From a virus (Duplodnaviria; Heunggongvirae; Uroviricota; Caudoviricetes), in the IMG/VR virus record IMGVR_UViG_3300021407_000008: DNA of 64,000 nucleotides; one strand, 5' to 3'. A program made the position numbers and the translations under genes. Numbering within the stretch: position 1 is the first letter of the stretch; the number at the start of each line of letters is the position of its first letter. Under the pieces are notes generated by a model. The model saw only the letters and a program-made list of their open reading frames with translations. It was not told the origin of the DNA and ran no database searches. Positions 32,981 through 34,720 of this stretch are shown here, piece after piece.

Positions 32981-34387
32981 TTATTGCGCGGCAGACAGTT
33001 TTTCGTCCTCGCGAATAAAATCAATACACGACTCCGACCAGCCGTCGATGTGCGTCCACTTGCCGTATCCAATACCGTTTTGGTAAGCGGCTACGTTAAT
33101 GAGATAGTTGTTTGTCGCAAACGCCTTGGCCTTGGCTGGAGCCTTGGCTGGATCGTGATCGCAGTCTTGTTCGTCGGTTAGGACAATCAAACGATCAGCG
33201 GATTTCTCTTTGTCTAAAACGTAATCCATAGATTGGACCAGAAAGATTCCACCACCACCAAGTTCTTCGTAACACTGCTTAACGGAATCCCGTAGCGCGA
33301 ATCCAGAACGCGATGGAATCAGTTTGGTTTTATGGATGCGCGTGCAATCGCTTCCAGCGGTGCAGTAAATTGCAACTTCTTCGCAAACCTCGCGGAGCAG
33401 CATGGCCAAAGCGGCGGCGGCATCGAATCTTTGCAACTCGCTTTTGCCGCTAATCATTCCACCCATAGAACCAGAAACGTCAATCACCAGAACCGTCTTT
33501 CCGGGAAGTTTTTCTTGCACGGCAAGGCACTTCAACATTGCCGCTTCCAATTCTGGCTCCAGCTTTGGATTATGGTTGGCTGCCGAAACAAAACGAAACG
33601 GCAAGACACGCTCAACCTTAATGTCGCGCAACGCAGCCCTGATTGCCACAATAGAAACGCTGGCCTCTTGCATGTTTCGCAAGTTACGAAGTAGCGCTAG
33701 AGCGCCAAGCTTGTTTTCCTTGAGCAATGATTCCCAGTGTTCCTTTTTCTGTTCTTCTGTTTTCTTGCCCTCACCAGCAGATAGCCGAGACTCCCATGTA
33801 TCGGCAGATTCTAGGGTTCCGTCAACTAGTTTTTTCCAAAGCTCAGCTTGTTCTTTGTTCTTTGGTTTCGCGTGACACAAGAAAAGAACATCGCGCAACT
33901 TAACTTCATTGTCGCGGTTGTATTTCGCTAGCGCATAGGCATCGAACTTATTGAAAGCCTTAGCTAACCCCTTTTTGACTTGAGCCGAAAGTGTTTTCTT
34001 GCCTTTTTGGTCTTTCCAGTACAAAGCGAGAAATTCAGAAAGCTCGTCTGCTCTCTGGACAACGCTAGCCAACGTGTCGGCAACAATGTTTGGTTCCAGT
34101 TTTTTGCTTCGTGCCATTTCGCGCACAAGTAGCAATGGCATATGGCGAAGCTTCTGGTTTTCGCGGCATTCAATAGCCAGCTTGGCCACGGTTTTTAGTG
34201 GAACATTTTCAATGGCCGCGACAATAGCTTCGCTGATCGTCTTGCCGTCAACGTAGAACTGATCTTCAAAAAGCATCGTCGCCAGAGTCAGTCGTCTCAG
34301 TTGTAGTTCTGGATTAACGCGAACAGCTACAGCACCTTCGTGCGTATAGATTGGATCGCGTTTAATTTTTAGGTTTGTTCTCGCCAT
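32981..34387 (-). CDS. rsr: Ro60 orthologue (Rsr): TROVE domain plus C-terminal vWA domain with a MIDAS motif
   Basis: N-terminus ...LQLRRLTLATMLFEDQFYVDG...AIENVPLKTVAKLAIE is TROVE-like. VLVIDVSGSMGG is the vWA MIDAS motif. An adjacent tRNA-like non-coding RNA is present. Confidence 0.6.
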   Translation of the reverse strand: MARTNLKIKRDPIYTHEGAVAVRVNPELQLRRLTLATMLFEDQFYVDGKTISEAIVAAIENVPLKTVAKLAIECRENQKLRHMPLLLVREMARSKKLEPNIVADTLASVVQRADELSEFLALYWKDQKGKKTLSAQVKKGLAKAFNKFDAYALAKYNRDNEVKLRDVLFLCHAKPKNKEQAELWKKLVDGTLESADTWESRLSAGEGKKTEEQKKEHWESLLKENKLGALALLRNLRNMQEASVSIVAIRAALRDIKVERVLPFRFVSAANHNPKLEPELEAAMLKCLAVQEKLPGKTVLVIDVSGSMGGMISGKSELQRFDAAAALAMLLREVCEEVAIYCTAGSDCTRIHKTKLIPSRSGFALRDSVKQCYEELGGGGIFLVQSMDYVLDKEKSADRLIVLTDEQDCDHDPAKAPAKAKAFATNNYLINVAAYQNGIGYGKWTHIDGWSESCIDFIREDEKLSAAQ

Positions 34388-34394
34388 TTTATCC

Positions 34395-34720
34395 TCGTTT
34401 CATTTTGCTATTAGGGAACAAGCGGTTGCGGAAACTGGCTTTCGCCAAGCAATTGCTCTGCCGACTGAGCTACGTTTCGCCTAAGCAAAACGGTTGGACT
34501 CGAACCAACGACCCACTGCGCCCGAAGTAGCCGCATCCTACGCCACTAATAACTTTTATGCAGGGAACAAGCGCAACGGGGTCTGGGCTTTCGCCCGTTC
34601 AATTAGCTGTTGAAGGAACCCATCACTAACGCCACTGCAATCTTTTATCTGTGGGAACAATCGTTGCGAGAGGGTTTTTCTTTTCAAGAGAAGTATCTCG
34701 CAACTACGCCACACAGAATA
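34395..34720 (-). ncRNA. Tandem Y-RNA-like locus (three paralogous modules; module 1 contains a YrlA-like permuted tRNA mimic)
   Basis: Minus strand reads T-arm GTTGG-TTCGAGT-CCAAC, hairpin CGTTT-TGCTTAGGCG-AAACG, D-arm GTAGCTCAGTCGGCAGAGC. Three units each end in ...GCAAC-NNN-TTGTTCCC, with GAAA-tetraloop hairpins and terminal helices carrying a mismatch. Located directly 5' of rsr. Confidence 0.6.

What the first reader, a model, noticed from the sequence alone, without database searches (positions are those of the whole stretch)
32981..34720. Phage-encoded Ro60 (Rsr) orthologue with three tandem Y-RNA-like modules, including a YrlA-type permuted tRNA mimic
ORF 32981..34387 has a TROVE-like N-terminal region and a C-terminal vWA domain with the MIDAS motif DVSGSM, which is the Ro60 architecture.

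Immediately 5' on the same strand lies an ORF-free 330 nt stretch. It contains a T-arm (GTTGG-TTCGAGT-CCAAC), a closed acceptor-like hairpin, then a textbook D-arm (GTAGCTCAGTCGGCAGAGC). This is the circularly permuted order reported for bacterial YrlA Y RNAs rather than that of a tRNA.

The region consists of three paralogous units. Each starts with an A-rich GTGGCGTAG... segment and ends with ...GCAAC-NNN-TTGTTCCC. Each has a GAAA-tetraloop hairpin and a terminal helix with an internal mismatch, consistent with Ro60-binding stems.

Flotillin/SPFH and HNH genes sit directly downstream. Three tandem modules next to a phage rsr may not have been described before.
Basis: partly seen in the sequence, partly recalled or inferred. 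Interest (0 to 1): 0.9.

Follow-up and report, generated by a model that had tools for sequence, protein, structure and literature searches.

The report
Phage Ro60 gene with three Y RNAs
A phage genome carries a Ro60 RNA-binding protein gene preceded by three small structured RNA genes (Y RNAs, one of them a tRNA look-alike); this is a real but typical example of a protein-RNA partnership already described in bacteria and phages.

Summary
ORF 32981..34387 (-) is a Ro60/Rsr orthologue: it matches TROVE and the Ro60 vWA domain, has the MIDAS motif DVSGSM, and matches the solved Thermus phage phiLo Ro60 over its full length.

The 388-nt gap upstream holds exactly three Y-RNA modules on the same strand:
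- U1: 34717..34648
- U2: 34640..34558
- U3: 34551..34409

Covariance models built only from other phage loci find all three (66, 34 and 89 bits). Elsewhere in the 64 kb they hit only tRNA-tRNA junctions.

All three share a terminal helix, a bulged U, GG/CC, an asymmetric loop (GGCGUAG opposite YUUGUUCC), an 8-bp helix and an invariant UACUUC. The helices covary across about 150 modules from 58 loci. U3 adds a permuted T-arm, closed acceptor hairpin and D-arm, which is the YrlA type. Rfam YrlA scores it 35.6 bits, below its cut-off of 69.

The novelty claim does not hold. Phage Ro60 with upstream Y RNAs is published (Chen 2014; phiLo 2025). Arrays of 2-3 modules are the norm, and CcrColossus has eight.

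Verdict: a new member of a known kind. Function (tethering or gating of Ro60, probably with host PNPase) is inferred, not shown.

The parts
32981..34387 (-). Ro60/Rsr orthologue, 468 aa: TROVE (HEAT-repeat ring) region plus C-terminal vWA domain with MIDAS motif DVSGSM
   Evidence: Pfam TROVE 1.8e-12 and vWA_Ro60 5.3e-7. PHROG 850 at 6e-48. PDB 9KOP/9L5Y phage phiLo Ro60 at 2.7e-23 over residues 14-459.
34392..34396 (-). Shine-Dalgarno-like GAGGA, 4 nt upstream of the Ro60 ATG. No terminator-like site lies between U3 and the gene.
   Evidence: Read from the sequence. The terminator scan finds only the T-arm itself in this interval.
34409..34551 (-). Y RNA module U3 (long, YrlA type, 143 nt). 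P1 is 34551-34546 plus GG 34544-34543, paired with 34416-34409; U 34545 is bulged. The loop is CGUA 34542-34539 opposite GCUUGUU 34423-34417. P2 is 34538-34532 paired with 34430-34424. UACUUC is 34529-34524. A C(UUCG)G mini-hairpin follows. The closing stem is GCAGU 34519-34515 paired with AUUGC 34453-34449. The variable loop is GGGUC 34514-34510.
   Evidence: Model R2, built from 12 other phage loci, scores it 88.8 bits, E 8e-20, over the full model. Model R1 scores it 40.7 bits. Rfam YrlA scores 34425..34534 at 35.6 bits, E 5.5e-6, below the gathering score of 69.
34493..34509 (-). T-arm mimic of U3: GUUGG-UUCGAGU-CCAAC
   Evidence: The T-arm pairs covary in alignment A3.
34473..34492 (-). 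Closed acceptor-like hairpin of U3: CGUUUUGC-UUAG-GCGAAACG, followed by the UA dinucleotide (34472-34471)
   Evidence: In A3, all 7 pairs of this helix show compensatory changes.
34455..34470 (-). D-arm mimic of U3: GCUC-AGUCGGCA-GAGC, with the G18 G19 equivalents
34436..34447 (-). Extra UGGC-GAAA-GCCA hairpin in the 3' junction of U3. It is an insertion relative to the family consensus.
   Evidence: The cmsearch alignment shows it as an insertion. It is also in the fold.
34558..34640 (-). Y RNA module U2 (two-hairpin type, about 81 nt). P1 is 34639-34635 plus GG 34633-34632, paired with 34565-34559; U 34634 is bulged. The loop is CGUUA 34631-34627 opposite GCUUGUU 34572-34566. P2 is GUGAUGGG 34626-34619 paired with CCCGUUGC 34580-34573. 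UUCCUUC is 34618-34612. P3 is UUCAA/UUGAA. P4 is GGGC-GAAA-GCCC 34596-34585.
   Evidence: R1 scores it 34.4 bits, E 5e-7. R2 scores it 36.2 bits. The single-sequence minimum-energy fold equals the comparative P1/P2 model. An orthologous unit with the same P4 is in L002 2735-2815.
34648..34717 (-). Y RNA module U1 (short hairpin type, 70 nt). P1 is UCUGUG 34717-34712 plus GG 34710-34709, paired with 34655-34648; U 34711 is bulged. The loop is CGUA 34708-34705 opposite GAUUGUU 34662-34656. P2 is GUUGCGAG 34704-34697 paired with CUCGCAAC 34670-34663. UACUUC is 34695-34690. P3 is UUCU-CUUGAAA-AGAA 34692-34678.
   Evidence: R1, built without window sequences, scores it 65.9 bits, E 8e-16. R2 scores it 54 bits. 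The fold z-score is -4.0, with 0 of 200 shuffles as stable. The minimum-energy fold equals the comparative model.
34736..34764 (-). Sigma-70-like promoter candidate, TTGACA-17 nt-TAGCAT. Its -10 hexamer ends 19 nt upstream of U1.
   Evidence: The consensus scan gives 10 of 12 matches. The count of such sites in the region is not above shuffles (4 found against 3.0 expected), and the site is not conserved in L002. It is a candidate only.
34552..34557 (-). A/U-rich spacers between modules (34641-34647 UAAAAGA and 34552-34557 AAAAGU). They are candidate endonucleolytic processing sites of a polycistronic precursor.
   Evidence: 61 inter-module spacers in related loci are 3-18 nt long and 73% A+U. 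Processing itself is inferred.

Best explanation
This is a phage Ro60-Y RNA cassette. One transcription unit on the minus strand encodes three Y RNAs (U1, U2, U3) and then the Ro60 protein.

**Shared part of the three RNAs.** Each RNA closes on itself through the same Ro60-binding module:
- a variable 5-6 bp terminal helix;
- a bulged U and a GG/CC clamp;
- an asymmetric internal loop whose 5' strand is GGCGU(U)AG, the phage version of the published GNCGAAN0-1G Ro60-recognition motif;
- an 8-bp helix and an invariant UACUUC-type junction.

**Variable part.** The apical 'effector' part differs between the three:
- U1 has a short hairpin.
- U2 has two hairpins.
- U3 has a circularly permuted tRNA-like domain (T-arm, closed acceptor stem, D-arm), which makes it YrlA-type.

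**Proposed mechanism (inferred).** By analogy with the characterised systems, the RNAs are cut from a common precursor at the short A/U-rich spacers and bind the outer face of the Ro60 ring. There they gate access to its central cavity. They also tether Ro60 to partner proteins, most plausibly the host 3'-5' exoribonuclease PNPase. The three apical modules would give three different RNPs. The phage would use these during infection to remodel decay or quality control of structured RNA, or to counter an RNA- or tRNA-directed host defence.

**Shown and not shown.** Gene identity, RNA family membership, the conserved and covarying structure, and the genomic linkage are shown here. Expression, processing, Ro60 binding, the partner and the biological role are inferred.
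For: **Protein**
- Pfam TROVE and vWA_Ro60 both match.
- Solved phage Ro60 matches over the full length at E 2.7e-23.

**RNAs detected independently of the window**
- Models built from other loci find U1 at 65.9 bits, U2 at 34.4 bits and U3 at 88.8 bits. All are on the Ro60 strand. Nothing comparable occurs elsewhere in the 64 kb.
- Rfam YrlA aligns to U3 end to end at E 5.5e-6.

**Structure**
- In 16 short modules, helix P2 was not used for selection. It is 84% paired, and 8 of 8 pairs show compensatory changes. No shuffle of 500 reaches the observed score.
- In 148 distinct modules, P1 and P2 are 94% paired against 45-53% in slid controls. All 16 pairs have changes on both sides.
- For the long type, RNAalifold recovers P1, P2, the T-arm, the acceptor hairpin and the D-arm. 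24 of 31 pairs are compensated.
- The single-sequence minimum-energy folds of U1 and U2 reproduce the comparative model.

**Linkage to Ro60**
- A motif scan of IMG/VR returned 120 pattern hits, of which 41 lie beside a Ro60 gene.
- All 41 are on the Ro60 strand, and 37 are upstream of the gene.
- Of the 79 hits without Ro60, only 6 loci are confirmed as modules by the model.
- The closest relative, L002 (66% identical Ro60), has the same three module types in the same order, with compensatory changes.

**Literature**
- Y RNAs are encoded within 2 kb of rsr, there are several per species, and they are processed from one precursor upstream of rsr in M. smegmatis (PMC4201824).
- Phage phiLo Ro60 binds two upstream Y-like RNAs and forms a ternary complex with host PNPase in vitro (PMC12135203).
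- A Ro60-like gene of phage Bas63 counters the Ppl defence system (preprint 10.1101/2024.10.10.617714).
Against: - There are no expression data for this window.
- The promoter candidate is only a consensus match, is not enriched over shuffles, and is not conserved in L002.
- U3 is well below the Rfam YrlA gathering score (35.6 against 69 bits).
- The window's motif GGCGUAG differs at one position from the published GNCGAAN0-1G.
- The single-sequence minimum-energy fold of U3 does not give the comparative structure (-50.2 kcal/mol against -46.6 with P1 enforced). The fold z-scores of U2 and U3 are unremarkable at -1.4 and -1.3.
- No PNPase, RtcB or other RNA-repair gene was found among the window ORFs I scanned, so the effector is a guess.
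- The three modules lie in what would also be the 5' leader of the Ro60 mRNA, so a cis role cannot be excluded.
Confidence: 0.85

Rival explanations
1. The three modules act mainly in cis, as a structured 5' leader of the Ro60 mRNA. Ro60 would bind its own leader and autoregulate translation or stability, and the modules would not be released as free Y RNAs.
For: - U3 ends 12 nt before the Shine-Dalgarno-like GAGGA and 21 nt before the ATG.
- No terminator-like site separates the modules from the gene.
- 37 of 41 Ro60-linked modules elsewhere are upstream and on the same strand.
Against: - In 4 of 41 loci the modules lie downstream of Ro60 (L058, L113, L125, L143).
- In L003 modules are separated from Ro60 by protein-coding ORFs.
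- L048 has a module with its own terminator-like hairpin and no Ro60 within 3 kb.
- In many loci the modules are embedded in tRNA arrays, which are processed RNAs.
- Upstream Y RNAs in M. smegmatis and D. radiodurans are cut from precursors and accumulate as Rsr-bound small RNAs (PMC4201824).
- The two roles are not mutually exclusive.
Confidence: 0.1
2. The tRNA-like and hairpin RNAs work largely independently of Ro60. They would be decoys or substitutes aimed at host tRNA-targeting defences such as anticodon nucleases, like the phage's 27 tRNA genes. The Ro60 gene would merely be a neighbour.
For: - The window carries 27 tRNA genes on the same strand.
- tRNA arrays flank the Ro60/Y RNA cluster in 9 of 19 related viral loci.
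- Many P3 hairpins have a 7-nt C-U-NNN-A-A loop resembling an anticodon loop.
- Possible orphan modules exist.
Against: - Every module type, including the non-tRNA-like U1 and U2, carries the motif homologous to the published Ro60-recognition sequence.
- Linkage and strand agreement with Ro60 are near-absolute.
- The acceptor end is closed, so the RNA cannot be aminoacylated.
- phiLo Y-like RNAs bind phage Ro60 directly.
Confidence: 0.04
3. This is a remnant of tandem tRNA genes or a chance repeat. The T-arm and D-arm would belong to two decayed adjacent tRNAs, and U1 and U2 would be meaningless repeats.
For: - The YrlA-type model does give false hits at real tRNA-tRNA junctions in this window (53972..54093 and 54161..54212). 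Chen 2014 warned of this.
- A module in CcrColossus is annotated tRNA-Gln.
Against: - ARAGORN finds no tRNA in the region, and Rfam tRNA scores only 19.6 bits against a cut-off of 29.
- The T- and D-arms are enclosed by the covarying helices P1 and P2 and joined by a closed, covarying hairpin.
- About 150 homologous modules occur in 58 Ro60 loci.
- U1 scores 65.9 bits with a model that contains no window sequence.
Confidence: 0.01

Closest known systems
YrlA (Rfam RF02553) with Rsr/Ro60 in bacteria and phages (Chen et al. 2014, RNA 20:1715, PMC4201824; S. Typhimurium YrlA structure, Wang et al. 2018)
   Same: - The RNA is encoded within 4 kb of Ro60 on the same strand.
- The 5' and 3' ends form the Ro60-binding stem, with a GNCGAA-type motif in the 5' strand.
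- The effector domain is a permuted tRNA mimic: variable loop ending in a pyrimidine, T-arm, closed acceptor stem, UA, D-arm.
- A short stem closes the core in the position of the anticodon stem. In U3 this is GCAGU/AUUGC.
   Different: - U3 scores only 35.6 bits against the gathering score of 69. cmscan places the model's outer stem one helix too far in.
- The motif is GGCGUAG, not GNCGAAG.
- The 3' strand YUUGUUCC and a UACUUC junction are nearly invariant in this clade and are absent from the Rfam consensus.
- U3 has an extra GAAA hairpin in the 3' junction.
- None of 31 related phage or Acidobacteriaceae loci reaches the Rfam cut-off.
YrlB / Yrn2-type short Y RNAs (S. Typhimurium YrlB, M. 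smegmatis YrlB, D. radiodurans Yrn2; PMC4201824)
   Same: - These are second, shorter Y RNAs encoded next to the tRNA-like one.
- They share the Ro60-binding motif but lack the tRNA-like domain and fold as long hairpins.
- In M. smegmatis they lie upstream of rsr and are cut from the same precursor.
- U1 and U2 fit this description.
   Different: - There is no curated model to test against, and no sequence similarity was tested.
- Here the short modules are clearly paralogues of the long one, with the same P1-loop-P2-UACUUC frame. They fall into two recurring classes, one hairpin and two hairpins.
Thermus phage phiLo Ro60 with Yrl1 and Yrl2 (NAR 2025, PMC12135203; PDB 9KOP, 9L5Y)
   Same: - It is a phage-encoded Ro60 and the best solved-structure match to the window protein (E 2.7e-23).
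- Several Y-RNA-like genes lie immediately upstream on the same strand.
- Each is a terminal stem plus an internal loop with a CGAA-type motif.
- Binding to phage Ro60 and to host PNPase was shown in vitro.
   Different: - It has two RNAs, not three.
- As described in the paper's text, Yrl1 and Yrl2 are hairpin RNAs with a CGAA motif. No tRNA-like domain is mentioned.
- I did not align the phiLo RNAs with the window modules.
Caulobacter phage CcrColossus TROVE gene gp139 and its upstream RNA array
   Same: - It is among the nearest isolate-phage Ro60 proteins (45.7% identity; Ralstonia phage RsoM2USA is marginally higher at 45.9%).
- The module frame is identical: GGUGGCGUAG...UACUUCG...YUGUUCCCC.
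- It is cited as a phage with Y-RNA-like RNAs.
   Different: It has eight tandem modules over about 1.2 kb instead of three, most of them tRNA-like. One is annotated as tRNA-Gln in the record.

Membership tests
Ro60 / Rsr (TROVE family) | TROVE (HEAT-repeat) domain | tested here: met
   Pfam PF05731 at E 1.8e-12, 47.6 bits against a cut-off of 23. PHROG 850 at 6e-48.
Ro60 / Rsr (TROVE family) | C-terminal Ro60-type vWA domain with MIDAS DxSxS | tested here: met
   PF25045 vWA_Ro60 at 30.2 bits against a cut-off of 27.7. DVSGSM is in the translation and aligns with DVSGSM of phiLo Ro60.
Ro60 / Rsr (TROVE family) | Full-length similarity to a Ro60 of solved ring structure | tested here: met
   9KOP/9L5Y at E 2.7e-23, query residues 14-459 aligned to chain residues 22-480. 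I did not model the ring shape itself.
YrlA (RF02553), for U3 | Score at or above the Rfam gathering threshold (69 bits) | tested here: not met
   35.6 bits, E 5.5e-6, over model positions 1-114. Related phage and bacterial loci also have no hit at the gathering score.
YrlA (RF02553), for U3 | Encoded within 4 kb of a Ro60 gene on the same strand (criterion of Chen 2014) | tested here: met
   U3 ends 21 nt upstream of the Ro60 ATG on the same strand.
YrlA (RF02553), for U3 | GNCGAAN0-1G motif near the 5' end | tested here: inconclusive
   The window has GGCGUAG in U1 and U3 and GGCGUUAG in U2, one substitution from the motif. In the clade the position is U in 81 and A in 61 of 150 modules, so exact GGCGAAG also occurs.
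YrlA (RF02553), for U3 | Permuted tRNA-like core: variable loop, T-arm, closed acceptor-like stem-loop, UA, D-arm, closed by a stem, with the nucleotides needed for tRNA tertiary contacts | tested here: met
   The cmscan and R2 alignments show it. Covariation in A3 supports it. The T-loop is UUCGAGU, the D-loop AGUCGGCA has GG, the variable loop ends in C, and UA precedes the D-stem. These are the conserved features listed in Wang 2018.
YrlA (RF02553), for U3 | Bound by Ro60; modified by TruB and DusA | not testable with these tools
   Needs immunoprecipitation and modification mapping.
Short Y RNAs (YrlB/Yrn2-like), for U1 and U2 | Ro60-binding stem with the conserved 5'-strand motif, no tRNA-like domain, encoded beside rsr and a YrlA | tested here: met
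   R1 hits at 65.9 and 34.4 bits. P1 and P2 covary. Neither unit has a T-arm or D-arm. No Rfam family matches U1 or U2 even at E up to 10.
tRNA | Cloverleaf with open acceptor stem, recognised by tRNA finders | tested here: not met
   ARAGORN finds no tRNA at 34.4-34.7 kb. Rfam tRNA scores 19.6 bits against a cut-off of 29. The acceptor stem is closed by a UUAG loop.

The most novel reading that the evidence does not exclude
The window belongs to a distinct, uncurated Y-RNA family that accompanies one Ro60 clade in phages and in Acidobacteriaceae.

- It is defined by U-GG-YGWAG / CG-N-YUUGUUCC around an 8-bp helix, plus an invariant UUACUUC junction.
- It comes in three structural classes (hairpin, two-hairpin, tRNA-like) that are mixed in tightly packed arrays of 1-8 modules.
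- The invariant UUACUUC/P3 element would be a second, still unknown protein-recognition site. In many modules P3 forms a 5-bp stem with a 7-nt C-U-NNN-A-A loop, placed exactly where an anticodon arm would sit.
- The arrays would then give a phage a combinatorial set of Ro60 RNPs.

The literature I could read does not describe this consensus, these classes or these array sizes. I could not read Chen 2014's supplementary tables or the 2020 Annual Review.
Probability: 0.4. Interest if true: 0.5.

Novelty: new member of a known kind. Interest (0 to 1): 0.35.

Why it matters
- Ro60-Y RNA particles are conserved from bacteria to humans, where they are lupus and Sjögren autoantigens. What they do in phages is largely open.
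- So far there is one in-vitro study (phiLo Ro60 with host PNPase) and one genetic hint (a Ro60-like gene of Bas63 countering the Ppl defence).
- This window adds one more clean example, and it led to some practical points:
  - The Rfam YrlA model misses this whole phage and Acidobacteriaceae clade at its cut-off.
  - Short non-tRNA-like Y RNAs can be found with a simple model of the shared stem.
  - Annotators sometimes call these modules tRNAs.
- For the window itself, the value is correct annotation of three ncRNA genes and a Ro60 gene, not a new kind of system.

Tried and rejected
- **Rfam at a permissive threshold on 34200..35000.** Only YrlA (sub-threshold) and tRNA (sub-threshold) matched. 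Nothing matched U1 or U2.
- **Megablast against isolate phages.** The locus gave only a 51-bp match to CcrColossus. Window 36-61 kb gave no match, so no close cultured relative exists in that collection.
- **Single-sequence folding of U3.** It does not recover the comparative structure. I relied on covariance models and alignments instead.
- **R1 with filters off.** This run missed U3, presumably because the tRNA-like domain appears to the short model as a very long insertion. With default filters and in R2, U3 is found.
- **Conserved gene neighbourhood.** tblastn of SPFH, DUF5131, both HNH proteins and two small ORFs against all fetched loci found no conserved linkage with Ro60. I rejected them as parts of the system.
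- **RNA-repair or decay partners in the window.** Pfam and PHROG scans of 32 ORFs found none: no RtcB, RNA ligase or PNPase.
- **Motif scan of IMG/VR.** About two thirds of the exact pattern matches are chance hits, with no Ro60 and no model support. The raw count is meaningless without the Ro60 and model filters.
- **Anticodon-arm reading of P3.** It is suggestive in other loci, where 13 of 35 predicted loops have 7 nt. It does not apply to the window's U3, so I kept it as a side note.
- **Literature I could not read.** The supplementary tables of Chen 2014 and the 2020 Annual Review were not available.
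Full report
**1. What is in the sequence**

The minus strand of 32981..34387 encodes a 468-aa protein.
- It matches Pfam TROVE (E 1.8e-12, above cut-off) and the Ro60-specific vWA domain (PF25045, above cut-off).
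- It matches PHROG 850 'RNA-binding protein' at 6e-48.
- Among solved structures it matches only the Ro60 of Thermus phage phiLo (9KOP/9L5Y), at E 2.7e-23 over residues 14-459. The MIDAS motif DVSGSM is identical in both.
- It is therefore a Ro60/Rsr orthologue.

The surroundings are phage-like.
- Downstream on the same strand are an SPFH/Band-7 protein (31092..32894) and an HNH endonuclease (30369..30833).
- Upstream are a DUF5131 protein (34776..35573), a second HNH-like ORF and a primase/helicase.
- 27 tRNA genes lie at 46.6-54.3 kb.
- No close relative exists among isolate phages.

**2. The three RNA modules**

The 388-nt gap between Ro60 and the DUF5131 ORF reads, on the Ro60 strand, as three units separated by 6-7 nt A/U spacers:
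- U1: 34717..34648
- U2: 34640..34558
- U3: 34551..34409

Each unit has the same frame:
- a 5-6 bp terminal helix whose sequence differs between units (CUGUG/CACAG, UGCAG/CUGCA, UAUUAG/CUAAUA);
- a bulged U and GG paired to CC;
- an asymmetric internal loop, CGU(U)A on the 5' side and NNN-UUGUU on the 3' side;
- a 7-8 bp helix P2, then UACUUC (UUCCUUC in U2).

The units differ in what lies between UACUUC and the 3' strand of P2.
- U1 has one hairpin (UUCU-CUUGAAA-AGAA).
- U2 has two hairpins (UUCAA/UUGAA and GGGC-GAAA-GCCC).
- U3 has a tRNA-like core:
  - variable loop GGGUC;
  - T-arm GUUGG-UUCGAGU-CCAAC;
  - a closed 8-bp acceptor-like hairpin;
  - UA, then D-arm GCUC-AGUCGGCA-GAGC and A;
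  - closure by GCAGU/AUUGC.

U2 has GUUGC rather than GCAAC, and U1 has no clean GAAA tetraloop.

**3. Is it more than chance?**

I fetched 22 viral contigs encoding relatives of the window Ro60 (27-66% identity), plus the CcrColossus locus. I built two covariance models from their modules only.
- R1, from 15 short modules, hits U1 at 65.9 bits (E 8e-16) and U2 at 34.4 bits (E 5e-7). This was an unfiltered scan of all 64 kb on both strands, and the next hit has E 2.5.
- R2, from 12 long modules, hits U3 at 88.8 bits (E 8e-20), U1 at 54 bits and U2 at 36 bits. Its only other hits are two tRNA-tRNA junctions in the tRNA array. Chen et al. warned of this artefact.
- Rfam's YrlA model aligns end to end with U3 at E 5.5e-6 but only 35.6 bits, below the gathering score of 69. 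Rfam has nothing for U1 or U2.

**4. Structure is supported by covariation**

- In 16 short modules, P2 was not used to select them. It is 84% paired, and all eight pairs show compensatory changes. No shuffle of 500 reaches the observed score.
- In 148 distinct modules aligned to R1, P1 and P2 are 94% paired against 45-53% for slid partners. All 16 pairs show double changes. That alignment is fitted to the model, so it leans towards the structure.
- For the long type, RNAalifold independently returns P1, P2, the T-arm, the acceptor hairpin and the D-arm. 24 of 31 pairs are compensated.
- The minimum-energy folds of U1 and U2 alone reproduce P1, the bulge, GG/CC and P2. U3 alone does not, which weakens single-sequence support but is not surprising for a multi-branched tRNA-like fold.
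- These positions are nearly invariant across 150 modules:
  - 5' strand: the bulged U, GG, G11, the AG of GWAG, and U-A-C-U-U-C;
  - 3' strand: C, G, U, G-U-U-C-C.

**5. Linkage with Ro60**

- A pattern for the short frame returned 120 IMG/VR stretches.
- 41 of these contain a Ro60 homologue, always on the same strand. In 37 the module is upstream and in 4 downstream.
- Of the remaining 79, only six loci are confirmed as modules by the model, and most of those six are short or truncated loci.
- R1 finds 155 modules in 58 Ro60 loci. The distribution per locus is 1:10, 2:19, 3:19, 4:7, 5:1, 6:2. These are lower bounds.
- CcrColossus has eight by R2.
- Neighbouring modules are separated by 3-18 nt that are 73% A+U.
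- The closest relative, L002, has the same short, two-hairpin and tRNA-like order as the window.
- Acidobacteriaceae MAG contigs encode Ro60 proteins 50-55% identical to the window's. They carry 2-6 upstream modules of the same type.
- SPFH, DUF5131 and HNH are not linked to Ro60 elsewhere. tRNA arrays often are.

**6. How it most likely works**

*Shown:*
- a Ro60 gene;
- three paralogous, structurally conserved RNAs on the same strand immediately upstream;
- a shared stem with a motif homologous to the published Ro60-recognition sequence GNCGAAN0-1G;
- one tRNA-like effector domain carrying the nucleotides that make tRNA tertiary contacts.

*Inferred from the characterised systems* (D. radiodurans, S. 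Typhimurium and M. smegmatis, PMC4201824; phiLo, PMC12135203):
- The RNAs are co-transcribed, possibly from the TTGACA-17-TAGCAT site at 34764..34736.
- They are cut at the A/U spacers.
- They bind the Ro60 ring through the 5' strand of the stem.
- They gate its cavity and tether it to partners such as host PNPase.

The three apical modules would give three RNPs. The biological role in infection could be decay or quality control of structured RNA, or counter-defence as hinted for Bas63 gp130. It is not known.

**7. Comparison with the known, and novelty**

- This is the Ro60-Y RNA system, with YrlA-type and YrlB-like RNAs, in a phage.
- Chen 2014 already listed 22 phages and several RNAs per locus.
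- The phiLo paper describes two upstream RNAs and names CcrColossus.
- U3 fails one formal membership test, the Rfam cut-off. It meets the structural and positional criteria, so I file it as a divergent YrlA-type RNA.
- The 'three tandem modules may be undescribed' claim is not a discovery, because three is the modal arrangement.
- I could not find the following described in the literature I could read:
  - the clade-specific consensus, especially the invariant UUACUUC and YUUGUUCC;
  - the three recurring classes;
  - the array sizes of up to eight;
  - the failure of the Rfam model on this clade.

**8. Verdict**

The novelty is overstated.
- This is a new member of a known kind. Interest is 0.35.

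Noticed in passing
L001 (NC_019406.1 CcrColossus) 5378-6571, minus strand of the locus: Eight tandem Y-RNA modules lie upstream of the TROVE gene gp139. One of them overlaps the feature annotated tRNA-Gln (L001 6093-6160), which is probably part of a YrlA-type module and not a tRNA.
   Followed up: partly
L048 3288-3356 (+); L046 4985-5050 (-) and about 5165-5225 (-): These are clean short Y-RNA modules with no Ro60 homologue in the DNA held. L048 has none within about 3.3 kb and is followed by a terminator-like hairpin. L046 sits upstream of terminase genes on an 11.3-kb contig. They may be orphan Y RNAs that use a Ro60 encoded elsewhere or by the host.
   Followed up: partly
L144-L161 (Acidobacteriaceae, Angelobacter and Rhodanobacteraceae MAG contigs), about 500-3000 upstream of the Ro60 match: Ro60 genes on bacterial MAG contigs (4 kb to 954 kb long) are 50-55% identical to the window protein. 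They carry 2-6 modules of the same type upstream. Rfam YrlA at its gathering score finds none of them. This may hint at the host range of the window phage, or at prophages.
   Followed up: partly
window 34692-34678 (U1 P3); L016 2636-2768, L107 479-604, L075 4234-4367, L010 2721-2844 and others: - The hairpin that starts inside the invariant UUACUUC often has a 4-6 bp stem and a 7-nt loop C-U-NNN-A-A.
- In the tRNA-like modules it is followed directly by a 5-nt NGGUC and the T-arm. That is the place and geometry of an anticodon arm plus a class I variable loop.
- Chen 2014 call this hairpin 'V'.
- The window's U3 has only a C(UUCG)G mini-hairpin there.
   Followed up: partly
window 46620-54262, minus strand: There are 27 tRNA genes in several clusters on the same strand as Ro60, covering most amino acids. 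In 9 of 19 related viral loci, tRNA genes lie within 3 kb of the Ro60/Y RNA cluster.
   Followed up: no
L018 1530-2054 (+), also L158: A tmRNA gene (Rfam 52.5 bits) lies about 1 kb upstream of a Ro60 gene on an AT-rich viral contig. The Ro60 match in L158, a contig labelled Nitrososphaerota MAG, has the same coordinates and statistics. AT-rich Y-RNA-like modules lie downstream of Ro60 there.
   Followed up: no
window 19353-22646 and 22517-28906, minus strand: Two very large ORFs (1097 and 2129 aa) have no PHROG match at E up to 1e-3. They lie in what looks like the structural gene region.
   Followed up: no
window 30369-30833, 35521-35865, 59694-60263: Three HNH-type endonuclease ORFs occur in the window, one of them fused to an AP2 domain. 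The one at 35521-35865 has homologues near Ro60 in L006, L007 and L061 only.
   Followed up: partly
window 53972-54093 and 54161-54212, minus strand: The YrlA-type model R2 gives false-positive hits where the T-arm of one tRNA is followed by the D-arm of the next. This is worth remembering when scanning phage tRNA arrays for Y RNAs.
   Followed up: yes
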